Assembly (NCBI GenBank): GCA_951406725.2
Contig: OX597822.1
Coordinates: 46,190,001-46,254,000, forward strand
Direction of reading: 5' to 3'
DNA length: 64,000 bases
Source of the DNA: Octopus vulgaris
Lineage: Eukaryota
Shown: positions 3,830 through 63,800 of the stretch, piece by piece
Numbering within the stretch: position 1 is the stretch's first letter
How the letters are laid out: each line of letters opens with the position of its first letter
Translations under genes and position numbers: made by a program
The notes under the pieces: generated by a model
Seen by the model: only the letters and a program-made list of their open reading frames with translations
Told to the model about the DNA's origin: nothing
Databases searched by the model: none

Positions 3830-3945
3830 TTTTGTTTTTAATAATTTTGAAACAAATGAAGAATTTATAGTAAAATAACTTAGTCGTAATTAACTTGGTA
3901 TTTGAAACATAAATTAACATGAAATTTTAATTTAGATCACTTTAA

Positions 3946-4158
3946 TTCTTTTAGTGTCAAGATTATTGAAGCAGCAACAATGTGTGTTTATTCACATCAT
4001 TTAGAATTTATCCTGCATTATTTTGTAGCCTTGAGATTTCGATGTTCAAAATGACATTGTAGGGTAGGTGTGAGATGATGGACCAGGCCAGTTTGAACAT
4101 TAGACATTAAACATGTAGAACATTTTGGCCAGATATGGCCGGGTTAAATGCTAAAGGG
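3946..4158 (-). mobile_element. piggyBac-like MITE nested in an older TTAA-type MITE
   Basis: TTAA at 3942-3945 and 4159-4162; right end aatgctaaaggg; reverse complement of the copy at 60669-60878. Confidence 0.7.
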
Positions 4159-4371
4159 TTAAAACAGTAAGTTTGTATCAAAGAACCAAGAGCAGTCTCA
4201 AGATAGTTGGTATCCAAAGGTTTAAGCAAAGGTCTCTAACTACAACGCATGCTCTGCAAATTAAATTGGCTAAGATGGGGACCACGAGGAAGGTGTCTTG
4301 AATGGATTGTGGCTTTTATTCTAAGGGGTGGCCTTGGTTTTGACATACACAGTGTTATAATGATTCTGTTG

Positions 4372-5769: not shown

Positions 5770-7534
5770 CAACCATATGAATTTCACCAGTTTCACAGAA
5801 CCTGTGAAGATGAAGGGCACTGCATCTTCCCCTTGACTAAATCATAAACGGTAGCACATTTGTTGTGGATGGATGATGCCAGCGTCAAGAAAAGTCATTT
5901 GAAGAATAAAGCGTAGGAGCATTATCTGCAGAGCAGTGTGCACAATATTGAAATTACAAAGAGAAGGTTTTAAAACTCTAGAAGGAAGTATTTGAAGGAC
6001 AGAACCAACCCCAGAGATATTCCATCAAAAATATATCTGAAATGTTGCTAAATGAAATATATAATGATGCACACCTATTATTCTTAATTTAATCTCAGAC
6101 CAACTTTCTGAAACTCCTCACCTAAATTTTTATAAATAAATAATGTCTTTTACTAAAATAATTGAAGTCTTTTTCTGCTATCCTTCCCCAACCCAAACTA
6201 ATGTCATCTGTCTTCCTTTATTCCTGATTTTTCCAATTTAGCGCTTTTGTACTTCCAGATGGATGAAAATGCATAATTTCACTCAGGTGAAAAGTATTTG
6301 TATTATTTGGAACTATCTTGTAGAAGTGATGGTAATGGAGGATTCAATGGTTTTTCATTTTGTTTTTTTTTTACTGAATAAATAAATCTTTGTATGGTGG
6401 AGTGATGAAGGCCTTGTGAAGTGGGATTTCGTAGAATGCAAGAACGAATACAATGGCCAAGATTAATGATTTACAAAAAGAGCTGAAATTCAAACCAACA
6501 AGTATAGGATGCTAAGGTCTTAAGCACCCAGTTAATGTTGTAAAGTGGTTGGCATAAGGAAGAGCATTCAGCTATAGTAATCAGGCCAAAGCAGACACTG
6601 GAGCATGTTGTGGTCCTTGGACCAATCAGATCCTGTTAAAACCCACACCAGTGTGGAATATGGACATAAAATGACACCACTGCTGATGCCAAAAACGATC
6701 TCTGAATATCAAAAGCAAATTATTTTTCCCACACACACAGAACAAAAGTAAGCTTCCACATTCACTTGACCTTTTCGTTGGAATATTTCTGATGAAATAC
6801 ACGTTTTTTGTTTCACTTAATACTGAAAATAAGGTAGAATTTAGTAAAATAGCTGGTGACTGGAACATGAATTAGCAAGTTTCAATGGAAGGTTTTAATT
6901 TACATCATAGAACCAGGGGCAGTTTTAGGAGGGTATCAAAAAGTTTAAGTGAAATCAGAAGGTAAAAAGCATATTTATTTTCTTTTTTATTCATAGTTTA
7001 GTCAGAGAAAGAAGGATAGTGTCCAGGAGCAACTTCAGGGCCTACAAGAGCGATAGGAGGAAGAGAATAAGTTATGTTCAGACCAAAGATCTAGTTCAAA
7101 TGCTTTCTTAAAGCACCTAAGATCAGGATGTAGGATAGTCTAGAAATCCTGAGGGGTTTTCTAAGGCTTCAACCAACCTCAGAAGGGATTATGTGACCCA
7201 CTCATTTCATAGTTGGATAATTAGCGATGCAGAGGGCAACTAGGTGTAAGAAACAACTGCCCCAAACCCATTTAAGTAGAGATAAACATAGGGAGAGATG
7301 CCTCCAGCCCAGTATTATACAGCTAGTCAAGGGGTTTTGTCTTGGTGACATCATTAGTGTCTAGTACACTCTGTAAAGTGGTTGGCATTAGGAAGGGCAT
7401 CTATCTGTAGAAACCATGCTAAAAACAGACGCTGGAGCTTGACACAGTTCTCTGACCTGCCAGATCCTGTCAAACTATCCAATCCATGGCCGCATGGAAT
7501 ATGGACACTAAATGGGTTATAATAGAAAGTTATA

Positions 7535-12994: not shown

Positions 12995-13316
12995 TGAAAA
13001 TGATCACATTTGCTTTTTCATCAACATCATCATTTAATGCCCGTCGTCCATGCTGGCATGGGCTGGACAGTTTAACTGGGCTGGCAAGCTGGAAGGCTGC
13101 ACCAGACTCCAGTCTGATTTGGCATGGTTTTCTACAGCTGGATGCCCTTCCTAATGAAAATGATCACATTTGCTTTTTCATCAACATCATCATTTAATGC
13201 CCGTCGTCCATGCTGGCATGGACTGGACAGTTTAACTGGGCTGGCAAGCTAGAAGGCTGCACCAGACTCCAGTCTGATTTGGCATGGTTTTCTACAGCTG
13301 GATGCCCTTCCTAATG
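12995..13316. repeat. 160-bp tandem duplication
   Basis: Copies start at 12995 and 13155 and differ at 2 positions; unit is flank plus a minus-strand RTE 3' tail. Confidence 0.95.
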
Positions 13317-16540: not shown

Positions 16541-16915
16541 TAACTGGCTCTCCGTCAGTTACAGCAATGAGGGTTCCAGTTGATCAAGCCGATAGAACAA
16601 CTTGCTCATGAAATTAACACACAAGTTGCTGAGCACCTCACAGACATATGTACCCTGAATGTAGTTAACTGGCTCTCCGTCAGTTACAGCAATGAGGGTT
16701 CCAGTTGATCAAGCCGATAGAACAACTTGCTCATGAAATTAACACACAAGTTGCTGAGCACCTCACAGACATATGTACCCTGAATGTAGTTAACTGGCTC
16801 TCCGTCAGTTACAGCAATGAGGGTTCCAGTTGATCAAGCCGATAGAACAACTTGCTCATGAAATTAACACACAAGTTGCTGAGCACCTCACAGACATATG
16901 TACCCTGAATGTAGT
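16541..16915. repeat. Perfect 3 x 125-bp tandem repeat
   Basis: Units start at 16541, 16666 and 16791; no differences seen by eye. Confidence 0.95.
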
Positions 16916-17111
16916 TCTCTGAAAGATTCAATGTGACAAGAATGGGACAAGGTTGGCCCTTTGAATTACTAGAACAACTCATTTTTGGCAGCTGAGTAGA
17001 CAGGAGCAATGTGAAATAAAGTGCTTTGTGCAAGGACACAACATGCTACTGGAAATCTAACTTAAGATCTTATGATTGCAAGCCAAATATCTTTAACCAC
17101 TAAAGTTTTAC
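16543..17111 (-). mobile_element. CORE-like SINE with triplicated 3' end and 12-bp TSD
   Basis: TSD acactggtgata at 16531-16542 and 17112-17123; CORE-like gtccttgcacaaagcactttatttcac; tail shared with the 12200 SINE. Confidence 0.8.
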
Positions 17112-31577: not shown

Positions 31578-31757
31578 CTTATTTGTTTTGAATTACTCAT
31601 GCATTATCTTGTAGCTTTGAGATATTGATGAAGTAACTATTAACTTTTTAGAATGACATTGTAGAGTAGGTGTGAGAAGCTGGGTCTGTCCAGTCTGAGC
31701 ATAAAACAGGTTGAATGTTTTGGCTGGATATGGTCTGTTTAAGTGCTAAAGTGTTAA
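31578..31757 (-). mobile_element. Partial piggyBac-like MITE (60669 family)
   Basis: Ends gtgctaaagtg-ttaa; body colinear with 3990-4158. Confidence 0.65.
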
Positions 31758-36402: not shown

Positions 36403-37037
36403 CACCATTCTGATTTGTGCATTCCCCCCTCAACATATCCAAACCACTACCACACACCCAGTGACCAACCTTCATTCTAACCAGCCTATACTACAATCAC
36501 ACATCCATACTGCTATTGTATACTCATATCACCACCATCAGTGACCTCCACTCTAGCTGTCATGTACAAGCGTCAAACAACACTACAGCAATCAACCACT
36601 GCCACCACCACTACCATCATCATATTGATTGATTTTCAAGTCCCTCTTCTCTCCACTATTCTGATTTGTGCATGTCTCCCTCAACATATCCAGACCACCA
36701 CTACACACAACCTATGACCAGCCTTTATTCTAACCAGCCTATACTACAATCACACATCCATACTGCTATTGTATACTTATATCACCACCATCAGTGACCT
36801 CCACTCTAGCTGTCATGTACAAGTGTCAAACAACACTACAGCAATCAACCACTGCCACTACCATCATCATGTTGATTGATTTTCAAGTCCGGCTTTTCTC
36901 CACCATTCTGATTTGTGCATGTCTCTCTCAATATATCCAGACCACCACCACACACAACCTATGACCAGCCTTTATTCTAACCATCCTATACTACAATCAC
37001 ACACCCATACTGCTATTGTATACTTAGATCACCACCA
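36403..37037. repeat. Tandem repeat, ~249-bp unit x ~2.5
   Basis: cacYattctgatttgtgcat anchors at 36403, 36654 and 36901; units mildly diverged. Confidence 0.92.
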
Positions 37038-39646: not shown

Positions 39647-40374
39647 TATTGGTTCTCAAATGTTTTTTTCCAATTGACCCCTTTCACTACTACTTTATGC
39701 TGGTGGACCTCTATAACCATTCAATGTTTAATCCTTTTGTTACTATATATATTTCGAGATGCTCTGTGTTTCTTTCAATTAATTTTAAATATAACAAAGA
39801 ATTTAGTAATATAATTTAGTTATTATTAAGCTGGTGTTAGGAACATAAATTGTGACTAAAGTTTGATGGAAAATTTTAATACAAAACTTATGAAAACAAG
39901 ATATTTGTACTACAAAGCCAGAGGCGGCTTCAGCCGGGTTGGTATTAAAAGGGTTGGGTTAAATTAATTATTTAACCTTTTGTTACCATATTTCTATTGA
40001 GATGTTCCGTGTTTCTTTCAATTGATTTAAAATAAAACAAAGAATTTAGTAAAATGACTTAATCATTCAGCTAGTGTTAGGAACATAAATTGTGACTAAG
40101 GTTTCTTGGAAGATTTTAATTCAAAACTACAGAGCCAGAGGTGGTTTCAGCCGGGTTAGTATTGAAAGGATTAAAAATTAGTTTTATAGATACTTCTTTC
40201 AAAATTTATATTTTGATTTTCACACATTAACTTGTGTAGGCTGAATAATTCAAAATACAAAAGAAAGGAATCTTGCTGTTATATGCAATAAACACATCTA
40301 AAGTAAATTTTTTCATGGACCCTAAATAAACTACTGTGGGTCTCCAATTTACTATTTTGCTTGTGTGGAGTCCC
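39647..40374 (+). mobile_element. hAT-like element (same family as 51124-52147) with a 2-unit TTAA cassette at 39728-40174
   Basis: Both flanks are colinear with the 51124 copy; degraded left TIR tattggttctcaaa; right end lost next to an RTE tail. Confidence 0.8.
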
Positions 40375-40637
40375 AAAGCTGACCTCACTGATGCTGCTGC
40401 CACATAAAATGCGCTCAGTCCATTCTGTGAAGTGATTGGCATTAGGGATGGCATCCAGCCATGAAAACCATTCCAAAGCAGACTTCGCCAGTGATGTTGC
40501 TACATAAAATCATCCACTCCATTATGGAAACTGGTTGGTAATTGGAAGAGCATCCAGTGGAGCTTGATAAAGTACTTTGGTCCCTGTCAAACCATCCAAC
40601 CCATATCAGTATGGAAGATGGAAGTAAAATGGTGATG

Positions 40638-40671
<34 letters not shown>

Positions 40672-40675
<4 letters not shown>

Positions 40676-41013
40676 TGCCGCCTGACTGGCTCCTGTGCTG
40701 GTGGCACATAAAAAGCACCATTTGAGCATGGTCGTTGCCAGTGCTGCCTGACTAGCTCCCATGCCAGTGGTACGTAAAAAGCACTATTCAAGCATAGCTG
40801 ATGCCAGTACTGCCTGACTGGCCCTCGCATCAGTGGCACATAAAAAGCACCCACTACACTTTCAGAGTGGTTGGCATTAGGAAGGGTACACAGCTGTAGA
40901 AACCTTGCCAGATCAGATTGGAGCCTGGTACAGAATCCTGGCTTGCCAGCCCTCAGTCAAACCGGCCAACCCATGCCAGCATGGAAAGTGAAAGTTAAAA
41001 GATGATGATGATG
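40672..41013 (+). mobile_element. RTE 3' UTR fragment with ~66-bp tandem units
   Basis: cagtRcYgcctgact anchors at about 40673, 40739 and 40805, then aggaagggtaca...ccatgccagcatggaaagt..(GAT)n. Confidence 0.8.
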
Positions 41014-41042
41014 ATATATATATAATAATGATAAATAATGTA

Positions 41043-41088
<46 letters not shown>

Positions 41089-44000
41089 ATATATGGGTAC
41101 AAGACGTCACCAATTGTTTAAACAACATGAAATACGTAAAACAAGAGACAAAAAATGGAAAACAGGACAACCAAACACAGAGAAACGACCCTTCATCAGT
41201 TGTCGGCTGTCTATCTACTCCTCATTTCAAAATTGAGTGTACAGATAGATATATCATTGCTAACATTATGTTTAGAGCTCCATGTAGATTGTCATAATCC
41301 AGTCTGCTTCCTGTAGAATAATATCATGTACATTGAGTAATATTATTAGTTATGAACTACAAACCAAATGTAAAAAAAATAAGGATAAACACAAGTTTAT
41401 ATTATAGTTCCTGAGCATGTTTTGGCATTACGGTTGTTTGGAGCACTGCAATAGGTGTTCCAAGTACATTTAGAGGTTCAGCCACAATGGATCATCAGGG
41501 GAACACTTTATTGCATCAAGTTACAGATAACTTAATTCAATAAATATATTTTAAACTTGGGTATACACCTGGTAGGGACCACAATGCATGATAGGCTGAA
41601 GCATTTATTGTGATAAATAAAAAAAAATCTCATGAATTCCATTTTCTCTTTCTCTCATTTGTTATATGTCATCATCATCTTCATTTAGCATCCCATTTTC
41701 CATACTGGCATAAGTACAATAGTTTGACTGGACCTGGTAAGCCAGAGACCCATACCAGGCTCCAGACATCATAGGAATTTGTAAACTTCAAGAGAACATG
41801 GTCCATGGTCAGTGGATCTCAAAAGTGCTTAAAGCTATAAATAAGGATTTCAAATTTTGGTACAAGGCCAGTAATGTCAGGGCAGGGTAAGTTGATTACA
41901 TTGACCCCAGTGTTTAACTGGTACTTATTTTATCAGTCCTGAAAGGATGAAAGGCAAAGTCAACCTCAGCAGAATTTGAAACAGTAATATCTAATAATGA
42001 GATCAAATGTTTTTAAGGGAGTAGGGTGTAAATGAAGTAAATTTGGTTGCTATTTCTAGCAGCTAAAGTGATCCTGTAGAAGCTCCATTGTTAGGTCAAG
42101 CACCTTCAGGTACTAATGAAAATGCAGACTTGCCCTAATTTAAGAACATTAAACCTGTATGAAAATTCCAGCCATGCCATTCCTACCGGTTTTCGGACAC
42201 TGTATTTAAGATTATATTTATCCAATGTATTATCATTATTTTTCTTTCAGTCACTGGACTGTGGTCAAGTTGGGGACACCACCTTGAAGGCTTTTAGTCA
42301 AATGAATTGACCCCAGGACTTAATTTTTTAAAGTTGGGTACTCATTCTATCAGCCACTTATGCCAAACTGTTACATTATAGGGATGTAAACAAACCAACA
42401 CCATTTGTCAAGCACACAAGTGGGGGACAAACAAACACACATACACACACAATGAGCTACTTTTTAGTTTCTGTCAACCACCTCCAATAATAAAGCTTTG
42501 GTTGGCCCAGAGCTGTAATGGAAGACATATGCCCAAGGTACCATGTAGTGGGACTGAACCTAGAACCATGGGATTGAGAAGCAAACTTCTTACCACACAG
42601 CCATGCCTGCTTTGAGGTAGATTTGGTTGTTGTTTCTAGCAAACCGAGAGACCATATACAGACTCCATCACAGTTTTGTGCTTTGATTTAGTGTAGCAAC
42701 AAAGAAACCATCTCATGTTTCTCACTTCCAGAGGTTTAATGCCTCGTTTAAGCCAGCAGAATTGAAGATATCAACTCTTTGACTCTTCAGCCAAAAGGCA
42801 AATATCTTATCATTGATTTCTGTCATTTAGTCTTGAAAGAAATCTTCAGCCATTTATTTACAAAGATACCTGTCTGGAGTGAAACGATATCGTATGGCAG
42901 AGCCACTTTTGACATTAAATACAAGCTCAAGTTGAACCATGTAATGCACTGTTGCTTATGGTCTTTAACTGAATAGGGGATAGAAACTGAGGCAGAATTT
43001 TCAAACAATACCAAAATGCAATGACGACAACAACAACAGTAACATTGCTGTCTTTGAGCAATCCCTTCCTCGTTTATTATTTTCCTTAGTTTTTTTTCCC
43101 CTTATATCAGCATTATAGTAATAATGCAACAAAATATTCTTTTATGTGTAATAGCAGTGATATAACATAATCAATAAATATTGAGGTCACTTGGAGTGAA
43201 ATCCAACGCAAATGGACATCAAATCATTTCTCTCCAGCCCTCACAGCTTTTCAGTAACCCACCATCACCACCACCAACGTCTCTCTCTTTCTCTTTCTCT
43301 CACAGACACACACATACGCACACATACACAGCTCAACTAGAATCACAAGTAAACTAGTTCAAATAATTAAGCCAGTCGTCAGCATGACAAAGACAACGAA
43401 ACACTAATATATTGGTTTCTATTGCACCTAGCTACAACACATTCAGAACATGGCTAAGCAAATACCATCACCACCGCCACCACCACCACCAACATCACCA
43501 CCACTGGCAACACTGCCTTTTCAGACACATTCTAGAAAGAAAATGTTGCCTTTCTTTTTTTCTGTCTTTCTTTTTTTTTTATTGTGACTTTTTTATTCTT
43601 TTCTTTTTTACTTTCATTTATTCCTGATAAGAACTAGTGAATGAGAAGAAAAAAAAGCAATGAAAAAGAAAGAGAAGAGAAAGAAGACACAAAGCCAGCA
43701 AATAGAATTTAAATTGCCAACCTGAGGTATGAAAATTAAGCTGCATCATGTATGTATGTATATATGTATGAAGAAGATATTGATACAATATCTACATTCC
43801 AAATATAGAAGAAACAACATGTGATGATAGAGAAAATGGAATAATAAGAAAGTAAAAATAAACCAAAATATGAAAGACAAGGGTGAAAAAAAGGAGGTAG
43901 GAGTTAATGAAGAGAAATGGAAAGAACTTGAAATTAGCCTGGAAGAAGTATGATGGCTGAAGGGATAAAAAAATAAATAGATAAATAAATAAATAAACAA

Positions 44001-47000
44001 GAAAACAGAAAAAAATTGCAATGGATGGAAAATCACCATAGCTCCCACCTCACTCTTTCTTTGTCATAAGCAATTTCTCACAGCTTTTCTTCTATTCTTC
44101 CATCACCAAATATTACTATTATTGATGTTGTTATTGCTGCTGCCACAACATCAGAGCTATCACCTTATTTGGCCAAAATGAAACACTTTTATTACTGAGA
44201 GTTAAATTATACCTACAATTTAGATTGAACAGAATAGTCAGCCATTTTTCTATCCTTTACAATCTGACCACTGAAAAAAATACAATTATCTGAATAATAT
44301 TTTCTCCACTAGAGCAATACAATAAAATTTAATATAATATGCTACATCCACATATGTACATATGTCTATCTTGTACATATGTATTTCAGAGAAATGTGAA
44401 GAGAGAAAGAGAGAGAAAGACACAGAGGAGAAGAAAATCCCATGTAAAGAAATGACAACAGCAAAATTTATTAGGTATTTATAAAATCAAAATGGCTGAC
44501 CAAGATTACAAAACAATTTTGTAGAGACGAAAAGAGATATTTTTTTGTTTTGTTTCACAATTATTCTTCCATCTGCGAAGTATACATACATATACATACA
44601 TACATACACATATATACATATATATGTATATTATATACACACACACATAATCTGGTTCAGGGGAAATGTTACAGATATATATCTATTCTATATATGCACT
44701 GAGTAATTAGATCAGTAAAAGAATAAATAAAGCTGTAAGCAACATTGACCATCAACACCAAAATCACACACAGATAAGACACAACAAACGATGATGACAA
44801 CAACAAAAAAAAAAGAGGGGGGAAATGAAGATATTATGAAATAACTTCTAAACTAAAAGATAACACAGCAATGGCTGCTGAATCAGGTGAATTGTTTTAA
44901 TGGAAAACCAACTCAGAATCGATGGTATCCAATATGAACAGAATCGACATTTAGTTTGCCATAAACAGCAGACACAAGCCAGTTTCTTTGATCATACACA
45001 CTAAATTAACTTTAGCATTTCATTATGGAAATTTCCAAAAATTTCCTCACCATTTTCTCACAGATTTACAATTAATTGACAACAAATCTAAAAGATGGTG
45101 GTTTTTTCATGATGTTGTCTTTCCTCTTTTACATTATTTATTACTTTTTCTTCATTTCTTTTATTTTTAAACATTTTTATTGTTTTTTTTAACCTTTTCT
45201 CCATCACACAACAATGGCTACCAAGAAGGAACAAATAAATAAAACAGTCCTCCACCACCACTACCATCATCACCATCACTCACTCTCTCTTTCCACTGTC
45301 CTCCCCATCTCCTTCTCCCCCCTCTCTCTCTCTTACTCTACTCCCAATAAATTATAAAAATATACAAACAACAAGAAATTGTTGATATTAATTCAAACCA
45401 AATATATTTGATATAGAGCTGCTGAATGAGCGGCATTCATTAAAGCAAAGCAAATCTTAACTGATATTATTTCAAACAGAAGTAGACTTCACAATCATCC
45501 ATACCAAAAATAGAGATGATGATGATGATGATGACAACAACAAGGTTAATGATAATGGTGATGATGATGATGACAATGATGACGACATTTCTTAGTTGTG
45601 TTTTTATCATTTATTTGTTGCTTTTTCTTTATCATGCATTGGAAGGTTTCTATGTATTCAGAAAATTTTCATACATTTAAACTGAATGATGCAGAAGTGG
45701 TTATTGTTGCAGATGAATCTCTCCTCTGCCTTCAACTTAACTCACCAACCAATCAACCATGAAGCCACGGAGGGTAACAAGCAAAAGTGATGGGGGTGGG
45801 GAGGGAACAAGAGAAAGAGAAGGTAGAACAATTAACTCTATGTCAGATAGGTGTTTTGTTTTTTTGCTGTTGTTATTTTTTGTAGGAGAAAGGAAGGGAT
45901 AAGGGTAACATAAACAGTACAAGACACTTTGAAATAAATACCATGTATGTGGCTAGTTCAGAACTGCTGCAGTTATAGGATTAGCAAAGTATAACCATGA
46001 ACCAAACCAGACAACATTTAACCTAGCAGCTAACACCATTTCGTGAATGGTTTGAGGACTGTTCAAGTGGATGTTGTTGCTGCTGTGGTTGTTGTTTAGC
46101 ACCACTGCAACAACAGTAAATATGGTAGATACAAACTGAAAGAAGCCCACTGAATGTGTGTGTGTGTGTGTGTGTGTGTGTATCTAGATACCTTATCTAG
46201 GAATCATACGCAGCTGTAAATGAACACCATTTGCAGTCTTCCATGGAAAGCATATCTAACAAGGTAATACATTTCCATATCTATGGGAAAGTATTACTTT
46301 ACCTGGAAAATGAAACTAAGGGTTGGCAACAGGAAGGGCATGCAGCTGTTGAAAGTCTACCTTAACAAAATTCCATCTAACCCATGCAAGCATGAAAAAA
46401 GTGGATATGATGACAATGATGATGATAGATTATAATGATGAAGAACACTCTGATATGGTCACTCCCGAGCTGATCAATTGCTAACATGAATTGATAGGCG
46501 ATCGGGTTTCAGATTGGTATCATCATGGAATCAGAGGCAGTCTTGAGCAGGTTACTTGCTACCAGGAGAGTTAGAAAGAATTATTAAAGAAACAACAGCA
46601 AAATGACTGACTTCAACAATCTTTTTTTTTTCTTTATTTTTTTTTCCATTTCCATGTTATTTTAACAATGAGGGTGTGTTTTGATCAGAAAAAAGTAGCA
46701 GCTGAAAGTCTAGTAATAGCTACAGTCAGTGCAGTAGGAGAGAAGTTAGAAGAGGTCAAGAGAGGCCAAGATTTTCAGTGACGACACTGTACACTGCGGC
46801 TTACTTTTGCAGAACTGTTAAATATGTAGCCACTGACATTTCAATGTCAGTCTGAAGATATTATTTCAGACCTAGGATGAGTTAAAAGTGGGAGGAGTGT
46901 ACTGAATAAATACTTTAATATTTTAAAACAAGAACATGAAGATACAAACAGCACTCATACATACGAACATAAACATATGATACATAAAGAAATTGGGTTA

Positions 47001-47084
47001 CATTAAATAAAAGTAATCTTATATACTAATCAAAATAACAACAAGAATGATAACAATGACAACAACAACAACAATAATAATAAT

Positions 47085-47520
47085 GGCTTCAAATTTTGGC
47101 ACAAGGCCAGCAATTTCAGGGGAGGTAGGTAAGTTGATTACACTGAACCCAGTGTTCAACTGGTATTTATTTTATCAAACCTAAAAGGATTAACGGCAAA
47201 GTTGACCATGGCAGAATTTGAACTCGGAATATGAAGATAGACGAAATGCTGCTAAACATTCTACCTGGTGTGCTAACGATTCTGCCACCTCACCAACATA
47301 AAAATAACAATAATAATAATTGTTTAAAATTTTGGCACAAGGCCAGCAATTTCAAGAGGAGTAGGAAGTCAACTATGTCAACCCCAGTGCTCAACTGGTA
47401 TTTATTTTATCGACACTGAAAGGATGAAGGGCGTTTGAACTTAGAACATAAAGGACCAGAAGAGATGGCGCTTGGAATTTTGTATGGCAATGTAACAATT
47501 TTGCCAGTTTGCAACCTTAA
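47085..47520 (-). mobile_element. Two tandem SINE family C copies between (AAT)n tracts
   Basis: Both begin aaattttggcacaaggccagcaatttca directly after AAT repeats. Confidence 0.82.
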
Positions 47521-47544
47521 TAATGATTATGATGGTGATGATGA

Positions 47545-47905
47545 TTTCTTTATTTGCCACAGGATTATTAGATAAAGGAGTTGTTACATGGACAGATTAC
47601 AATATGTTTGGGGGGAGGGGGGAAGGTTACATAAAAGAGGAGTAAGAAAGGAATAGAACGGGGGTGAAACGCGATGAAACTATACATGGTATACAAGATA
47701 TGTGAACACCTGGTGCAGTCCTTCTGATAGAGAACCTCCAGTCAAGGACCTCCCCACCACAGATTTGGATTAACCCTGATGACCACAAGAACAAGCCCTT
47801 GCCCGCTGACAGCTGAGGGCATGTAGAATATAGTTCCCCACTCAGAAAAATAATGAAAGACCTGTAAAAAAACTGGTAGTCTTTTTCGGCCCTCTGTATT
47901 TTTAC
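47545..47905 (-). mobile_element. Probable LINE (Tx1-like) 3' UTR
   Basis: Minus strand ends gtggcaaataaagaaa(tca)n with a poly(A)-signal-like AATAAA; CpG-retaining, non-coding. Confidence 0.35.
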
Positions 47906-48632
47906 ACTGATGCGTGTGTGTGTGTGTGTGTGTGTCTGGTAGATGTGTGTATGCAGGTTATAGATTTGTATTTGTGTTGTTAATGTGTGCCACGAGCGAG
48001 AAACTGTTGGGTGTGGATGTGAATACTTATTGTGGATATGTGTGTGTATGTGTTCATGTTGTGGATGAGTGTATATAATGATATGTATATGCATATATGT
48101 GTAAATGTATCTGTACATTGTGTGTGTGTGTGTGTATTGTGAATGTGTATGTTAAGTTGTGGATTTGTGCATGTCATGCGAATGTATGTGTGTACATTGT
48201 GGCTGTGTGTATGTATGTTGTAGATTTGTGCATAAGCTGTGAATGTGTGTGTGTATGTGTGTGAGTACGTGTGTGTGTGTGCACACAGGTGAGTGTGTGC
48301 ACTGGTTTACTGAGCCATCTTTACAAACCCATCCCATTACATCTAGATAAATCTATCACATGATTTACTGCTAAATTAATTTCTAGATGGAAAGAGATAA
48401 GTCAGACACGTGAGAAATCCACTGCAATGTTTAACTTACATGCAGTAAGAATCTAACAACAAAGAAGACAAGACAATTGTTTAGACAAAACAACAGTGAA
48501 AGTATTCAACAATAATACTGACATAATTCATCACTAGGCACCTTTTTTTTGTTATTAGGGAAGACAATGCCCTTGATATTTTGTGGTTTCCAAGACTAGT
48601 GAAGGAGGAAGCACAGAAAGACTAAGCATAAA

Positions 48633-49111
48633 TACTTGCAACAGAGTGAACTCCACTCAAGGTGCCAAGTGATGGCATATTTGTAACAAAGTGAACTCCA
48701 CTCAAGGTGCCAAGTGATGGCATATTTGTAACAGAGTGAACTCCACTCAAGGTGCCAAGTGATGGCATATTTGTAACAGAGTGAACTCCACTCAAGGTGC
48801 CAAGTGATGGCATATTTGTAACAGAGTGAACTCCACTCAAGGTGCCAAGTGATGGCATATTTGTAACAGAGTGAACTCCACTCAAGGTGCCAAGTGATGG
48901 CATATTTGTAACAGAGTGAACTCCACTCAAGGTGCCAAGTGATGACATATTTGTAACAGAGTGAACTCCACTCAAAGTGCCAAGTGATAGTGTACTTGCA
49001 ACAGAGTAGACTCCACTCAAGGTGCCAAGTGATAGTGTACTTGCAACAGAGTGGACTCCACTCAAGGTAAAAAGTGATGGTGTATTTGTAACAGAGTGGA
49101 TTCCACTCAAG
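48633..49111. repeat. 45-bp minisatellite, 10 full units plus a partial unit
   Basis: Unit acagagtgaactccactcaaggtgccaagtgatggcatatttgta starts at 48641 and recurs every 45 bp to 49091. Confidence 0.97.
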
Positions 49112-49612
49112 TGTCAAATCAAATGACAGATTAAGACAACTGCTCAAGCAGGCCACAGCAGGATTTGCACCCAAAACACAAAAACTAGAATAAATATCAC
49201 AAGGCATTTGGTCCCGATGTTCTTACAGTTTCATCACCCTATATTGCTACTTTATCAACTCTCAAGATGAAATGCAAGTGCCACAATAAAATGCAGCCGG
49301 GAAACCTTTGTAACCAAGTTGATGTCTCCAATTCATCTGAAAGGCCTGTAACAGCAAATACGGAACTGACTCACATAGCAACAATCCAACCATGCCATGC
49401 TCAGCTAAACAGTAGGTGTACAATGATGATGGTGATATTGATGAGACACACATTAATACACAATTATACATGTAGATAATTTAGAGAACACAATCATTTG
49501 ACAAGGAACACAACTATGAACAAGAACTTGATTCTCAGTACAGTGAGTGAACAAGAGTTTTACAATCTTCTCTTACACAATGTAATTTGATTTGGTTATT
49601 AAATGTGCTCTT

Positions 49613-49644
<32 letters not shown>

Positions 49645-49949
49645 TTGTTATTTAACAGCTCTCTTCCATGCTGGCATGGGTTGGATGGTTTGACAGGAGC
49701 TGGAAACCCACAGGACTGCACCAAACTCCACTGTTTTGACATGGTTTTTACAGTTGGATGCCATTCCTAATACCAACCACTTTACAGAGTGGAGACTGGG
49801 TGCTTTTTGCATGGTAAAAGCACTAGCGGGGCTTATCATCTTTGTTTTTAATGTCCAGTTTTCTATGGTCACATAGGTCAAATGGACTCCGTTGAAGCAG
49901 CTTTTCTACAGCTGGATGCCCTTCCTGTTTCCAAGCAACATATTATTTC

Positions 49950-50203
49950 TTCATGGGAAGGCGGCAAGCTGGCAGAAACGTTAGCATGCCGGGCAAAATG
50001 CTTAGCAGTATTTCATCTGTCTTTATGTTCTAGTTCAAATTCTGCTGAGGTCAACTTTGCCTCTCATCCTTTCATCCTTTCATGGGAAGGCAGCAAGCTG
50101 GCAGAAACGTTAGCATGCCGGGCAAAATGCTTAGCAGTATTTCATCTGTCTTTATGTTCTAGTTCAAATTCTGCTGAGATCAACTTTGCCTCTCATCCTT
50201 TCA
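49950..50203. repeat. 129-bp tandem duplication of a SINE C 5' half
   Basis: tcatgggaagg at 49951 and 50080; about 2 differences; extra tcatcctt at the junction. Confidence 0.92.
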
Positions 50204-50444
50204 GGATCGATTAAATAAGTACCAGTTACGTACTAGGGTTGACGTAATCATCTTAATCCCTTTGTCTGTCTTTGTTTGTCCCCTCTATGTTTAGCCCCCT
50301 AAAGTGAACAATAAAGAAATAAATATATTTCCTCATGAGCAGACGTCTCAGAAGATTGGAAATAAAGGGCACCACTTGCATTATGGTGACACTCACTCAC
50401 GTCTATCACATGATGAAGGAAAGGAGAGACAAACATGCACATAC

Positions 50445-50479
<35 letters not shown>

Positions 50480-50488
50480 CAAACATGC

Positions 50489-50526
<38 letters not shown>

Positions 50527-51123
50527 ACTCACACAAGTACACCAACATATATATATATATATATATATAATACAAACACACACACACACATACACACGTA
50601 TGGGTGTGTGTATGTATTACTAAATTAGGAAACCCAAGTAAAAAAAGATAAGAAATAGAGACAGATACTGCATATTCTGAAGGGTTATGGTGATAGCAAA
50701 AACCCTTATCACTATGTTTCAAAGATCCATTATCTTGAGTCAAACAGATCTTTGAAGAGTCGAAGACCACATTATTGCAGGACTGGGTCACTTATGCTGG
50801 CAAGAGGCCGTCTGACCTGAACAAGGGTCAAAACAACAATAACTTGGGTGTCGAGGTGAGCTATTCTTGAAAGATTTTCTTAACAAGAGTGACTCCTATT
50901 CAATATAAACACTTGTTTGTTCACAATCACTAAACGCTGGGTCTATGGACATTGCTAATCCTTTTTCAAATGTAGTCTGGGTTTAGGGAACTAAGCATCT
51001 TAAAACAAAAGGAAGGACAGAAAGACATCCAGAACAAAGTATTCTGTGAGAAACAAAAAGAGAGAATAGTAACAGTTGGAGTATATTTCATTATAAGTCT
51101 GACTGATTAGGGATGACCTAGAG

Positions 51124-52147
51124 CAGGCGTTCTCAACCATTTTTATCTGTGGACCCCTTTCATAACTATTTTATCCTGGTGGACCCCACTAGCCATTCTA
51201 TGCTTAACCCTTTTGTTGTCGACCCGGCTGAAATCGCTTCTGGCTCTGTAGTCTTATTTTCACAAGTTTTTAATTAAAATCTTCCACCAAACCCGAGTCA
51301 CAATATATGTTCCTAACACTAATGATAACTAAATTATTTTACTAAGCTCTTTGTTATATTTAAAATCAATTGAAAGAAACACAGAACATCTCAACAGAAA
51401 TATGGTAACAAAAGGGTTAACAAATTATTAATTTAACCCTTTCAATACCAACCTAGCTGAAACCAGCTCTGGCTCTGTAGTACAAATGTCTTGTTTTCGT
51501 AAGTTCTGAATTAAAATCTTTCACTAAGCCTTAATTACAATTTATGTTCCTAACACTAGCTTAATGATAACTAAGTTATTTTACTAAATTCTTTGTTATA
51601 TTTAAAATCAATTGAAAGAAACACAGAGCATCTCAACAGAAATATAGTAACAAAAGGGTTAACAAATGAATAATTTAACCATTTTGATACCGACCCAGCT
51701 GTAACTGCCTCTGGCTCTGAGTACAAATGTCTTGTTTACATAAGTTTTGAATTAAAATCTTCTGCCAAACCTTAGTCACAATTTATGTTCCTAACACTAA
51801 CTTAATGATAAGTTATTTTACTAAATTCTTTGTTATATTTAAAATTAATTGAAAGAAATGCAGAGCATCTCAAAATAAATATAGTAACAAATGGGTTAAA
51901 AACTAGTTTTATAGAAATCTCGTTCAAAATTCCTATTTTGTTTTTTCACACATTAACTTGTGTAAGCTGCACAACGTAAAATGTTATAGAAAGAAACCCA
52001 GCTGTTTCTTGCAATACATACATCTAAAGCAGGAGCTCTTAGAATACTATTGTGGGTCTCCAATTTACTATTTTGTTATGTGGACCCTCCCAAAATCTCA
52101 TATGGACCCTCAGGTGCCATATGAGATTCCCCAGTTGAGAATCACTG
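51124..52147 (+). mobile_element. Complete non-autonomous hAT element with a 3-unit TTAA cassette
   Basis: TIRs caggcgttctcaac / gttgagaatcactg; TSD acctagag / atctagag; tggaccc subterminal repeats. Confidence 0.9.
51204..51899 (+). mobile_element. Trimeric piggyBac-like MITE cassette
   Basis: Three ~210-222-bp units, each TTAA-ccc...ggg-TTAA (51208-51416, 51437-51658, 51679-51895), with 12-bp spacers. Confidence 0.85.
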
Positions 52148-52992
52148 ATCTAGAGTTTGCATCAGTGGTTCTCAACTGGGGTCCATATAAGATTTTGTTG
52201 TTAAAATTTTGTTGCACAATAAATTGATTTATACTTCTATAACACACAAAATGTTTTACAAACTCCAAACTAAAATTCAAGCTAATAAGGGTGCCTTATG
52301 TGGTTACTCAACCTGCAAGAAACAACAGCAAAAATCCCTTCAAATTACAACCTACCACCTTAAAGAGTAACAGTCAGACAGACACACAGGTCAATCAAGT
52401 CTCTGGGATCCAAAAAGCAGAAGGATAATAGTTTAAACACCTTTGATCCTAAGTTTGCTGACTCAGGGTTGAACTAAATTGCTCAAAGGTGAAACAGCAA
52501 CAAAGTAAAATTCATGTTCACACCTTTATTGCTCACCATCTGCCTATCTGTCTGTCACTCTCTCTCGTTCTCTCTCCCCCTCTATCTATCTATCTATCTG
52601 TCTGTCTCCACTCTCTTTTTTAATCTACCTACTGCTGTTCTACTAAAACCATCCAGGACACCAGTTACCAAGATTTAACAAGTTTTAACCCAGTAACACT
52701 CTTTTAACAAACATTCCAACAGATAGTCAACATAGACATACAAAGTGGTTGTTGCTACTGCTGCTACTGCTGCTTTTAATAGTGGACAGAGGAGAGACTC
52801 TTAATACCAAGCTTCTTAAACATTTTTTAACTCTCTCCACTTTTCTTTCACTAACTTTTTTTCAACATCCTCTTACTACAATTCACTGCCACACCCTCAT
52901 CATTTTAAATGTACATACATATAATATCAACCCAGTGTAATTTTCCGACTACTGGGTGATGTAGGTGACTACTTCAGTGCTGCCCTACTACA

Positions 52993-58963: not shown

Positions 58964-60304
58964 GTTGCTTCCTCTTTCTCCTGGAATCAGCTTCATTTCA
59001 TTATGGAAAGGATCATCAGTGACCACTCACAGAATCCCTATATCCAGAAATGGAGATAGACTGAGCAAGATCTTAGCAAATTTTCCTCATAGACACAAGT
59101 GTAGCTGTGTGGTAAGAAGCCTGTTTCCCAACCACATGGCTCCGAGTCCAGTCCCACTGCGTAACATCTTAGGCAATTGTTTCTACTATAACCTTGGGCA
59201 GACCAAAACCTTGTGAGTGGATTTGGTAGACAGAAACTGAAAGAAGCCTGTGTGTGTTTGTCTATCTGTCTCCTCCCTTCTCTCTCTCCCCTTGTATCTG
59301 TGTTTGTCTCCCACCACCTCTTGACAAGCAGTTTTGGTGTGTTGACATCTAGGTAACTTAGCAGTTCAACAAAAAAGACTGATAGGATAAGCACCAGTCT
59401 TTCCAAAAAATAATGATGAGTACTGGGGTCAATTCATTTGATTAAAACCTCTTCAAGGCATTGCTCCAGCATGGTCACAGTGTAATGACTGCAACAAGGG
59501 AAAGATAAAAGTTAAAAGCTATAAAACTTCTTACACAAGGACTGTAAGACATACAATGGAGCAAGGAAAGGAAATGAAGAAGAAAAAAATATTTAGTGGT
59601 CAACAAGTGGAGATGAAGAAAAGACAAAATGTTGGACATCATTACCTTACAGCATTTGAGTTAAAGAGAGTAAGGTCTGAATCCAGATTGAAAAGCAGCT
59701 GACTTTAACATCTCCCATCCAGGACGGTTTGGTTGATGTAAGAAATACCATGCCTCTGTAATATTTTAGGCACCAAATGAAGAGATTTTCCTCTTAATGA
59801 AATACTGCAATCAACAATTAACACAAATGCTGCCTCAACTTGCAGGAGTATTGCGACTCACACTGAGAAGGCTTTATGATCTTCAAAACAAGTCTTTCAT
59901 GAGGAGCCTCTGTTTGTTCATTTGACTTGTGACAAACAGCAGACAAATCTCCTTCAAACCACACTGTACCATTTCGAAAATGGGTACATTAAATGTTGTC
60001 ACTGTATCAACCTGACTATCAGATGTTGCTTTACACAGCTGGTCACAAGGTGTGTCCTCACATTCTTGAAGCTTTCGAATGATACCACACTGCTGGCTGG
60101 ACAGGTAGGCTAACATTCTACCTGAATAGAATGCCAGTCCACCACAGGGTGACCCACCCATTCAAGCCTAAATGAAAAGAGTGATATGAAATGAAGTACT
60201 TTATTCCAAAACACAAAGCAGTGCCAACCTAGGGATTGAAATTACGATTTTACTATTGGTAGTGCAACACCCAAATCACAAGGCCACTTGCTTTCATACT
60301 AGAC

Positions 60305-60559
60305 CAATGGTTCTCATCTGAGATCTGTATGGCCCTAGATCGATGGTTCTCAACCAGGATCTGTATGGCCCTTGGGCCCATATAAGATTTTGTTCTTAAA
60401 ATTTATCTGCAATAAATTGCTTATATTTCAGCAATGCACAAAATATTTTAACAATTTTATCAATAAGATTTGTTTAAACATCAAATGGCCGTGGGGGTCC
60501 AAAAGAGTAAAACAGAAGTCTAAGGGTCCCATAGGCAAAGAAATGTTTGAGAACCACTG
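60305..60559 (+). mobile_element. hAT-like MITE with duplicated left end
   Basis: Left termini at 60305 and 60341 (36-bp duplication); right TIR tttgagaaccactg; related fragment at 52163-52260. Confidence 0.7.
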
Positions 60560-60668
60560 CATTACTTGATGCAGTCCAATATATACTATGTCAGAGAAAA
60601 CAAAAGGATGGTCATGAATGAAATATACTTCATTCATAGATCTCTAGTCAGTGTTGATATGAGTTTAA

Positions 60669-60878
60669 CCCTTTAGCATTTAAACCGGTTGTATCCAGCC
60701 CAAATATTCAACCTGTTTTGTGTTCAAACCAGCTAAATCTGGCCTCTCCATTATATCATTCTAAAAATAAACAATCACATCATTGAAAACTCAAAGCTAA
60801 AAGATGATGCATGATTAATTCAAACCACTGTGAATAAATAAGCATTACATTTGACAGAGTAATCTGAATGCTAAATGG
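60669..60878 (+). mobile_element. piggyBac-like MITE
   Basis: TTAA-ccctttagcatt ... aatgctaaatgg-TTAA. Confidence 0.85.
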
Positions 60879-63800
60879 TTAAATAATAACAAACAAGTCA
60901 TTCAATGGAACCGGAAAGAACACAGATAACAAGAGCACCCAATGATGTATTAGTGCCACAGAGCCTTGGCAAATCTCCCGTTTCACAGAGAGAGAGCAAG
61001 AGCTGTTGCAATGAGATGAAGAAAACATCTGAACAAAATGACTGAAGAATTCTGATTGCATTTTGATAAAACATGACAAGGAGGGAAGGGTCCTTTAATC
61101 AAGGTAAATGTGCTGGGGTTGATTAATTCAACTGTATGGCCCACACAAAACAAATTATGTAACCTTGTGCAGATGTGAGTATTCAGTATTTAATCTTGTC
61201 TCTGTTACATTTTCATCATTTCAGACTCAATCATTTAAGTACCAGTCATATATTTAGGTCAATACAATCGATTGTAGCCACTCACCTACATATATTGGCA
61301 ATACACCGGAGTCCATAGAAATGAATATTAGATTTATATTTAACTCCCAACAGATAACCTGAAACACACAAATAACAACAAATCTCAACGGTTACACTGT
61401 AAAAGTGAACATTGGGGTGGTGGTGTTGTTGTTATTGTTCAGGGTAGGGATGTGGTGGGGAAAGCAAAGGTAGTAGATGGGCTAGATTAATGGTAGTAGT
61501 AGTAGTGGCAGAAGTAGTGATGGTGGTAGTGGTGGTAGCAATAGTAGTAGTGGTGATGGTGGATGTAGGTTTGATCAAATAGTAGTGAAGATCAGCAAGG
61601 ATGATAGGGATGGAGATAAGTGGTTGTAGTGATGGTGGTGGAAGAGAAAGGGTTGGTGTTATGGATGATGGTGCAGAACAGTGAAATGATGATAATGATG
61701 GTGGTGGATGATGACAGAATAGTAATGTCATTGTGGAAGCCAAGGTGGGGGAGGGAGGGGTATGGAGATTTGTAGTGGTAGAGATCATCGAGGTGATAGT
61801 GATGGTGGTTGGAGAAGGAGATGGACAAGAAAAGACAGCAGAAGAAAATCTGGAGAATGTTAACATTGGTGTGAATGGAACTATTCACCTTTCAGCTTGC
61901 TGCATGCTCAATGCAAAACACCAAACAAGATGGATTATAAAAGGTGTCGAGAGCTGCTAGAAAAACAACGGCCATTTCCAAATCAGTGATCATGGCATTT
62001 CCACAAACCATTCCAAGCAGTTTCAAAACAACAACAACAACAGGCAAAGGCTACTACAACAACAACAACTACAGCAGTGACCTAAACAACAACGGCATCA
62101 ACGATGAAAACAGTTGCCACAATATCAAGTACAACTACAAAAACAACAACAGCTACAATAATAGCAATCGCAACAACATCAACAACAAAAAGAGCAACAA
62201 CTGCAGCAACAGTAATAACATCAGCAACAAATGGCAATTTCAACACAAAAACCATTCTTAATAATAATGAGAAATGTAAATGAGATGAAAAAAAAAATCT
62301 TTATCATTATTGTCATAATCATGAAATTGTAATGGCCAGGTGAAGAACCATCAATTTGTGGGTTTGAGATGCTTTGGCACAAATCATTTTGGTGCCACCC
62401 ATTTAGCATCACTGATTCGATGCTGACTTATTTGACATCAGGCATTTTAATGCTTCATTCTCTCTCTCTCTCTCTCTGTGGGTATATTTCTCTTCATTAC
62501 GTCAATTATGTTCAAATAATATCTCTTTATGTGGATGAGGAGAGGGAAAGCATTTTCATCAATCGTGTTCAATTAATAAATCATAACATTACCCCCCTCC
62601 TCCCTCCCCCTTTCAATTTGTACATGTATATTTCCGAGCACACGTTTGCCTTCAGCTCCAGACTGACCGTTCAGTCAACCATGCCAAATTAACCCGTGTC
62701 CACACAGCTGCAGTCACTTGTCTTATTCCACAAATTTCTTCTTCTTCTTCAGGTACTGTGTATTACTAGGACAAATTGTTTTCACTACCTCATCAGTTGG
62801 ATGTAGCGTAATTAAATCCTAAGTTAATCACATGAATAACGAGTCTTTGCACAAGTGTTTCAAGACATCTTACTTTTATTTCTCATGGAAACAGAGAATT
62901 AAGACCAATGAAAATACTGGCTCTTTGGCTCTATGAAGGAGAAGAGAAGAAAGTGAGAAAATGTCATGAAAAATTAGTCCTGGGAAGTCGAAGATCTATT
63001 TCTTTTCATACAAAGAAGGAGTCTACACAAGAGTAGTGCAATATATTAGGCCCCATAAAGTAGGCCAGGTGAAATACTTAGCCGTATTTTGTCTGTCATT
63101 ATATTCTGAGTTCAAATTCCAGCGAGGTCGACTTTGTCTTTCATCCTTTTGGGGTCAATAAATTAAATACTAGTTGCATACTGGGGTTGATGTAATCGAC
63201 TGGCACACTCCCTAAAAATTTTGGACCTTGTGCCTAGAGTAGAAAATAATATATTAGGTCCCATGACAAAAGTTAAGAATCAGCCCTAACTTGCACTGTT
63301 TTTTGACGCTTTTATACATCAGATGCAGGCATGGCTGTGTGATAAGAAGTTTGCTTCCAAATTACATGCTTCCATGTTCAGTCCTATCGCGTGGCACCTT
63401 GGGCTCTACTATAGCCTCAGGCTGACCAAAGCCTTGTGAGAGATTTCATAGATGGAAACTGAAAGAAGCCCATTATTTGTGTGTGTGTGTGTATCTTTGT
63501 GTCTGTCTTTGCTCCCCCCCACTACTTGACAATCAGTGTTGGTGTGTTTATGACCCCGTAGCTTAACAGTTCAGCAAAAGAGACAGTTGGAATAAGTTCT
63601 GGGCTCCATTCATTCGACTAAAAATTCTTTGAGGCAGTGCCCCAGTATGGCCACAGTCTAATGACTGAAATGAGTAACAGAAAAGATAAGAAAAGAAAGC
63701 AAAAGCAGAATGAGCAGAAACACAGAGTTGGCCAATCAAATTAACTGGTCTGCTGAGTCATATACATCCTGCAATGTGAAGACGAATGAATCATTAACAA

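What the first reader, a model, noticed from the sequence alone, without database searches (positions are those of the whole stretch)
39647..52147. Same hAT element, same TTAA site, same multimeric cassette, opposite orientation
Seen: two copies of one hAT-like family (39647-40374 and 51124-52147) run in the same direction. Both are interrupted at the homologous TTAA (ccattc.atg.TTAA...TTAAaaa.tagttttataga) by the same ~215-bp piggyBac-like unit. The cassette is a dimer in reverse orientation in the first copy (39728-40174) and a trimer in forward orientation in the second (51204-51899). Unit subtypes keep their order under inversion (terminal unit has aaaattaattg and ctc.aaata.atatagtaac; the others have aaaatcaattg and ctcaa.agaaatat) and the short spacer is similar. 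Known: piggyBac inserts at TTAA and excises precisely. Inference: either a strong target preference of one transposon for a site in another, or a composite element whose passenger can flip and change copy number.
Basis: partly seen in the sequence, partly recalled or inferred. Interest (0 to 1): 0.75.

Follow-up and report, generated by a model that had tools for sequence, protein, structure and literature searches.

The report
Transposon hot spot, locally spreading multimers
The two look-alike nested insertions are two of about a hundred copies of one old jumping element whose same four-letter site holds two different piggyBac-type elements in both directions, so they are likely separate landings at a favoured site and not a cassette that flips; the odder point is that chained forms of the passenger occupy megabase-sized patches of chromosomes, which likely means they spread between neighbours.

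Summary
The anatomy is as described. The host (H) is a ~340-bp non-autonomous hAT. The passenger (U) is a ~226-bp non-autonomous piggyBac whose ends match transposase-bearing elements in this genome. The shared TTAA is a real but modest hot spot: 16 of 1,065 intact copies are filled (1.5%), against 4 of 1,046 and 1 of 960 at two other TTAAs of H and ~0.2-0.26% genome-wide. It is not a partnership. Of 88 typed fills, 37 are U (25 forward, 12 reverse) and 47 are a second piggyBac family, V (24/23). The two window copies are not close relatives in host or passenger, so a flipping composite is not supported. Chaining and unit order are family-wide traits of U. Chains use three fixed spacers (351, 276 and 1,023 junctions), each confined to its own megabase territories (109 of 113 nearest neighbours share the spacer). 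The window lies in a territory of the 12-bp spacer, where most U loci are such chains and share a rare variant. Local spread is shown; whether by homologous copying of the junction or by local hopping is unresolved (one replication test went against copying). The scan's notes held no earlier report of it.

The parts
39647..39727 (+). Host copy A, left arm of non-autonomous hAT H (degenerate left TIR)
39728..39962 (-). U unit, terminal unit of chain A (includes left TTAA 39728-39731 and a 7-bp duplication at its inner end)
39963..39971 (-). Shortened S12-type spacer of chain A
39972..40174 (-). U unit, first unit of chain A (23-bp internal deletion; carries local marker 177C; right TTAA 40171-40174)
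40175..40377 (+). Host copy A, right arm, truncated (no right TIR)
51116..51123 (+). Left 8-bp hAT target duplication of copy B
   Evidence: 7 of 8 match to 52148-52155
51124..51203 (+). Host copy B, left arm with TIR
51204..51420 (+). U unit B1 (first; 177C; inner-type 3' end)
51421..51432 (+). S12 spacer
51433..51662 (+). U unit B2 (middle; 177C; inner-type 3' end)
51663..51674 (+). S12 spacer
51675..51899 (+). U unit B3 (terminal; monomer-type 3' end; right TTAA 51896-51899)
51900..52147 (+). Host copy B, right arm with TIR
52148..52155 (+). Right 8-bp hAT target duplication of copy B

Best explanation
Two old, unrelated copies of a non-autonomous hAT each carry a non-autonomous piggyBac (U) in a TTAA that is a genome-wide hot spot for two piggyBac families, and they most likely received it in two separate insertions with random orientation. 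Shown: the site is filled in ~1.5% of hosts, by U or V, either way round; U forms head-to-tail chains with three fixed spacers wherever it sits; each spacer type occupies its own megabase territories; the window lies in a territory of the 12-bp spacer, where 5 of 7 young U loci are such chains and 6 of 7 share a rare variant. Inferred: the two passengers look alike because chain junctions spread locally. The route I favour (about 55:35 over local hopping of whole chains) is homologous copying of a stretch [3' end of U - spacer - 5' end of U] from a neighbouring chain into a resident monomer (interlocus gene conversion or a reintegrated circle), which keeps the resident's outer ends and orientation and fixes the inner ends; unequal exchange then changes unit number, up to satellite-like arrays. 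Part of the site preference (about 2-3 of the 6-fold) is predicted by the bases next to the TTAA (pyrimidine-TTAA-purine, TTTAAA); the rest is unexplained.
For: Hot spot: 16/1,065 vs 4/1,046 vs 1/960 (Fisher p=0.012 and 3e-4); genome 103,330 end motifs over ~19.9 M TTAAs = 0.26% (p=4e-8). Many independent fills: U+ 25, U- 12, V+ 24, V- 23, other 4 of 88; all three spacers occur among fills. No composite clade: host distance 21.6% within a fill class, 21.5% between, A-B 22.5%; A-B shared changes exceeded by 17% of 3,597 pairs; A-B units 10.8-14.9% apart, ranks 31-147 of 151; U monomers in hosts no closer than others. Flank preference from 164 ends. Territories; 109 of 113 nearest neighbours on C1+C2 share the spacer, permutation mean 56, max 72. 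Local state; marker 177C, also at other C9 chains, and marker 210G on C7. Fixed inner ends: first units inner-type 45 of 52 vs 17 of 65 monomers (p=3e-11), last units like monomers 33 of 49 vs 42 of 65 (p=0.84); 26 of 26 non-terminal ends inner-type in a fresh set. Neighbours share rare variants at the junction more than at outer ends (0.89 vs 0.11 expected, outer 0.17 vs 0.07; still 0.33 vs 0.07, p=0.0025, without the strongest cluster).
Against: Two U fills among 6 local hosts is still unlikely in any one region (0.07-2% for per-copy rates of 0.7-4%); the window was picked for this coincidence, but a direct A-B link is not excluded. The terminal units of A and B share an uncommon end haplotype (2 of 66 monomers). 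The fresh set did not repeat the inner-over-outer sharing: inner 0.125 (p=0.49), outer 0.625 (p=0.014), 8 near pairs among 13 of 20 arrays, though one search shows several units scored as outer were internal. In that set terminal ends were 9 inner-type, 6 monomer-type, 2 unclear, fewer monomer-type than the pool. U fills lean forward (25:12, p=0.047; the U set is enriched by orientation-specific searches). The flank model over-predicts site 3 and under-predicts site 1, and about ten host or spacer ends leaked into its 164 ends.
Confidence: 0.72

Rival explanations
1. Local hopping: ready-made S12 chains transposed as units on their outer ends and landed near their donors; A and B are two such landings (or one hopped from the other) in the favoured TTAA. 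Inner ends are frozen because only outer ends are used and exchanged.
For: Chains have intact outer TIRs and TTAA duplications; territories and local markers; outer-end sharing in the fresh set; shared end haplotype of A and B terminal units; DNA transposons hop locally (PMC5333637, passages).
Against: Outer ends of chains mirror monomer polymorphism, for all three spacers; neighbours in the main set share junction variants but hardly outer ones; one array mixes two spacers (L004); A and B units are not each other's near relatives. This rival differs from the best reading only in how chains arrive; both reject flipping.
Confidence: 0.18
2. Composite hAT carrying a U chain was duplicated or mobilised once, and the passenger later inverted between its TIRs or was re-inserted reversed.
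For: Same spacer, same unit order, 11.5 kb apart; 7 shared host changes, second highest for B among 91; shared 177C and end haplotype. Composite duplicates exist elsewhere (L270/L305, L294/L295).
Against: Host distance 22.5%, as for unrelated pairs; shared-change ratio unremarkable. 177C marks nearly all local U copies outside H too. The known duplicates are inverted segmental copies of host, passenger and flanks together, not flips. No flipped or empty junction among listed contig pieces (lists were cut, no long reads).
Confidence: 0.06
3. Pure chance: no site preference, only many elements and many TTAAs.
For: 98.5% of hosts are empty; local piggyBac density is ~3-4 times the genome mean (27 end motifs, control 1, over 1,717 TTAAs).
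Against: Two other TTAAs of the same hosts, which share regional bias, are filled 4 and 15 times less; spacer territories are far from random.
Confidence: 0.04

Closest known systems
TE tandem dimers by double insertion, and their expansion into satellites (McGurk & Barbash 2018, PMC5932611; 12 passages read)
   Same: Head-to-tail DNA-transposon dimers, insertion-site preference, expansion of a dimer into an array (here an S16 array of at least 64 junctions on C1). Direct double insertions sharing one TTAA also occur at the H site (L171, L173, L265, L286, L310).
   Different: There the junction is the locus's own target duplication and the hobo array maps to one locus; here junctions are TTAA-spacer-TTAA with only three main spacers reused at hundreds of dispersed loci, sorted into territories.
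Spread of Rsp-like satellite into 1.688 clusters on the Drosophila simulans/mauritiana X (Sproul et al. 2020, PMC7403614; 12 passages read)
   Same: A rare junction arises once and is proposed to seed other loci that already hold the homologous repeat, by interlocus gene conversion or circle reintegration.
   Different: There two unrelated satellites; here whole piggyBac-type elements with intact ends chained by short captured spacers, on many chromosomes, with transposition as a live alternative.
Non-autonomous piggyBac elements / MITEs (TTAA target; PMC8151067, passages)
   Same: TTAA duplicated, CCC-starting TIRs, ends shared with transposase-bearing elements of the genome.
   Different: A large share of loci are chains with conserved spacers; laboratory piggyBac is described as single units.
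Non-autonomous hAT of the Charlie/Buster type (family label recalled, from no call)
   Same: Short TIR starting CAG, 8-bp duplications with a T-(C/T)-T-A-(G/A)-A core.
   Different: No autonomous partner was sought; here it is only the passive target.
MITEs carrying internal tandem repeats, e.g. DTC84 of Donax trunculus (PMC3879986; search listing and start of abstract only)
   Same: Repeat array inside a TIR element in a mollusc.
   Different: Here the array is not part of the host family (98.5% empty) and the repeat unit is itself a whole transposon.

Membership tests
piggyBac (U) | TTAA target duplicated on both sides | tested here: met
   empty sites hold one TTAA
piggyBac (U) | Short TIR beginning CCC | tested here: met
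   ~14-bp TIR
piggyBac (U) | Ends shared with an element encoding PF13843 transposase | tested here: met
   L378 and L371: U right end 92% over 26 bp, left end 82% over 38 bp in L378; related, not necessarily the mobilising partner
piggyBac (V) | Ends shared with an element encoding PF13843 transposase | tested here: met
   L363, L364, L366, L387: both ends 77-92%
Kolobok (other TTAA superfamily) | TIR beginning with purines (recalled) | tested here: not met
   U and V begin CCC
hAT (H) | 8-bp target duplication | tested here: met
   12 of 25 full-length copies match at 6 or more of 8; copy B 7 of 8
hAT (H) | Short TIR beginning CAG | tested here: met
hAT (H) | Autonomous partner with hAT transposase and the same ends | not tested
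   no search made
Composite (cargo-carrying) element H[U] | Filled copies form a clade with shared passenger and orientation | tested here: not met
Invertible element | Both orientations at one locus among alleles or orthologues | tested here: inconclusive
   only the assembly's orientation seen in listed contig pieces; lists cut, no long reads
Target-specific transposon | Most insertions fall in the one target | tested here: not met
   about 100-200 fills against ~80,000 excess element ends genome-wide
Double-insertion tandem dimers | Junction equals the locus's own target duplication | tested here: not met
   29 of 37 complete chains use one of three shared spacers, 2 mix one with another spacer, 4 have none, 2 are other
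Junction spread by interlocus conversion / circles | Resident outer halves kept, junction copied from neighbours | tested here: inconclusive
   supported; inner-over-outer sharing not repeated

The most novel reading that the evidence does not exclude
A transposon-to-transposon junction behaves as its own selfish unit: three short spacers, each captured once between two piggyBac miniatures, copy themselves by homology into neighbouring single elements, converting monomers into chains across megabase territories and seeding satellites, possibly helped by breaks the transposase makes at element ends. The territories would then be a fossil map of the range of ectopic gene conversion or circle reintegration in the germ line.
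Probability: 0.4. Interest if true: 0.65.

Novelty: new variant of a known kind. Interest (0 to 1): 0.42.

Why it matters
The flagged pair is mostly ordinary nesting at a favoured site. What remains of value: (1) a natural, internally controlled measure of piggyBac preference among TTAAs (1.5%, 0.4%, 0.1% at three sites of one repeat); (2) a snapshot of the route from transposon to satellite with all stages present (monomer, dimer, short chain, arrays of 60+ units) and about 1,650 counted junctions carrying three natural barcodes. Their territorial pattern makes the open question of how tandem junctions reach new loci (hopping, conversion or circles) testable by comparing orthologous loci in related species.

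Tried and rejected
Flipping passenger and composite mobilisation: rejected. A hint that variant 177C marked chains inside H (3 of 3 in H, 0 of 7 outside) dissolved: it marks the chromosomal neighbourhood. The monomer-class distance test mis-assigned copies and was redone by locus; only one search is used. The capture-recapture figure of ~218 fills (68 of 78 right-junction hits kept after dropping 10 empty look-alikes, 61 left-junction hits, 19 shared) is inflated, since of 22 loci that failed the junction filter 15 were fills, 1 empty and 6 showed no host flank. Raw reads of run X22 gave 6 reads and told nothing; joints listed across the repeats came from other copies and were not used. No long open frame in the window looked like a gene (exons not sought). 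Look-ups in the scan's notes by sequence and by place gave nothing on this family. Paper searches found no description of spacer-barcoded piggyBac miniature chains or of this hot spot; the library lacks most subscription papers, and repeat databases were not available, so the families may already be catalogued. Supplements were not read; the repeat library behind PMC13282606 (part 1 of 3 of the text read) might list them.

Full report
Observation. Host H is a ~340-bp element with short TIRs and 8-bp duplications (12 of 25 full copies match at 6 or more of 8; copy B 7 of 8). Passenger U is ~226 bp between TTAAs with a ~14-bp TIR starting CCC. Both are abundant: about 3,200 and 3,000 first-look candidates in G000. 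U's ends match piggyBac elements with PF13843 transposase (L378, L371), and a second family V matches others (L363, L364, L366, L387). The genome is a 2.8-Gb animal assembly; an octopus-like source is my recalled guess and the label of earlier scan notes, not tested. Contigs of other runs cross B's left junction (second species label, 49 host plus 105 passenger bases) and, more weakly, A's junctions in the assembly's orientation.

Is the site special? The 29 other best host copies carry no U there. Exact patterns give 21 filled right junctions, 16 of which extend to the 20-letter motif that occurs 1,065 times: 1.5%. Two other TTAAs of the host give 4 of 1,046 (control 107) and 1 of 960 (control 52; host flank of that one hit not checked). 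Genome-wide the end motif occurs 103,330 times (control 22,646) over ~19.9 million TTAAs estimated from 20 stretches of 10 kb: 0.26%, or 0.20% after the control. Site 1 exceeds site 2 (p=0.012), site 3 (p=3e-4) and the genome (p=4e-8). Flanks of 164 element ends prefer A and avoid T next to the TTAA (0.55 vs 0.38; 0.16 vs 0.31), predicting 1.7-3.4-fold for site 1, 0.2-0.5 for site 2 and 1.0-2.3 for site 3 (about ten host or spacer ends leaked in). So the neighbouring bases explain part of it; a 2-3-fold residue is unexplained.

Who fills it? Looser junction searches and 76 fetched loci gave 89 records; one was empty, leaving 88: U forward 25, U reverse 12, V forward 24, V reverse 23, other 4. 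Fifteen more fills lay among 22 loci that failed the filter. Two pairs are segmental duplicates. Most fills are monomers; 11 of 37 U fills are chains, using all three spacer types. Hosts with the same fill class are no closer (21.6%) than hosts with different fills (21.5%); A-B is 22.5%, and their shared changes are unremarkable. U monomers in hosts are no closer to each other (10.9%) than other monomers (10.9%). A's and B's units are 10.8-14.9% apart and rank 31-147 of 151 for each other. This is repeated independent insertion, not a mobile composite with a flipping load.

Why are both fills the same kind of chain? Chains are a trait of U: 37 of 103 complete loci held at that point were multimers (the sample is biased toward chain units), mostly joined by one of three spacers of 12, 16 or 23 bp between two TTAAs. 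Genome counts: 351 (up to 1 mismatch), 276 and 1,023 junctions. Each type is clustered; on C1 and C2, 109 of 113 loci (arrays collapsed by hand from the listings) have a nearest neighbour of the same type, against 56 on average in 500 permutations. The window lies in a 12-bp-spacer territory (C9, 45-48 Mb). In the surrounding 264 kb, 5 of 7 young U loci are such chains, piggyBac ends are 3-4 times denser than average, and 2 of 6 hosts spanning the site are filled. A variant found in 14 of 197 units overall is present in 6 of these 7 loci, inside and outside hosts, and at other C9 chains; C7 chains share another. Two U fills among six hosts remains a 0.07-2% event for one region, and A's and B's terminal units share an uncommon end haplotype, so a direct exchange or hop between them is not excluded.

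Unit order. First units have the inner-type 3' end in 45 of 52 chains against 17 of 65 monomers (p=3e-11); last units resemble monomers (33 of 49 vs 42 of 65, p=0.84); the 5' side shows the mirror trend. A fresh set of 20 loci gave 26 of 26 non-terminal ends inner-type and terminal ends 9 inner-type, 6 monomer-type, 2 unclear. Chains less than 1 Mb apart share rare variants near the junction eightfold above expectation but hardly at outer ends (weaker but still present without the strongest cluster). The fresh set did not repeat this and showed outer sharing, with some mis-scored units.

Mechanism. Shown: hot spot, multiple families, both orientations, territories, fixed inner ends. Inferred: each spacer was captured once when two U copies landed in TTAAs 12-23 bp apart; the junction then spread locally. 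Homologous copying into resident monomers explains fixed inner ends, monomer-like outer ends for all three spacers, a mixed-spacer array (L004) and A and B looking alike in opposite orientation; local hopping of whole chains explains territories and the fresh-set result. I put copying at about 55% and hopping at about 35%. Unequal exchange is the likely source of near-identical inner units and long arrays.

Comparison. Closest are double-insertion dimers expanding into satellites (PMC5932611, passages) and junction-led spread of Rsp-like satellite (PMC7403614, passages); piggyBac TTAA use and clean excision from PMC8151067 (passages); local hopping from PMC5333637 (passages). Searches found no report of spacer-barcoded piggyBac chains in territories; coverage of the library is incomplete and no repeat database was at hand.

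Verdict. Observation confirmed; flipping composite not supported; site preference real but modest and shared by two families; the territorial junctions are a new variant of known transposon-to-satellite routes. Interest 0.42.

Noticed in passing
L034, L049, L083, L150, L151, L170, L174, L180: H often sits in head-to-tail partial repeats that restart right after an internal octamer (about position 206-213) matching its own 8-bp target consensus; looks like H inserting into itself at one internal site.
   Followed up: no
G000 C1:1.29-1.31 Mb; C27:32.75 Mb (L021); C28:5.33 Mb (L014, L025); C11:10.54 Mb: Satellite-like arrays of whole U units: at least 64 junctions of the 16-bp spacer on C1, 13 or more units with the 23-bp spacer on C27 and C28.
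   Followed up: partly
L363, L364, L366, L387: Full-length ~2.6-kb piggyBac copies with identical ends, two without stops in the family match (open frames 581 and 554 aa); likely the young partner of family V.
   Followed up: partly
L171, L173, L265, L286, L310: Second element inserted in the TTAA regenerated beside the first at the H site (V+V inverted, or U+V), i.e. plain double insertion.
   Followed up: no
L270/L305 (C25, 2 kb apart); L294/L295 (C17, 20 kb apart): Recent inverted segmental duplications (95-98% identical) that include a filled host.
   Followed up: partly
window 3950-4162, 31584-31757, 60665-60882: Copies of piggyBac family V in the window; older U-like fragments at 3831-3915 and 6766-6854.
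   Followed up: partly
window 52163 onward and 60299-60559: Related hAT miniatures sharing H's ends but with another middle; one starts 15 bp after copy B.
   Followed up: no
H consensus around site 1: The hot TTAA lies between a perfect 10-bp palindrome on the right and a near-palindrome on the left (seen); any role in target choice is untested.
   Followed up: no
window 12995-13316, 16541-16916, 36403-37037, 48632-49111, 49950-50203: Recent local tandem duplications of 45-247-bp units (91-100% matches).
   Followed up: no
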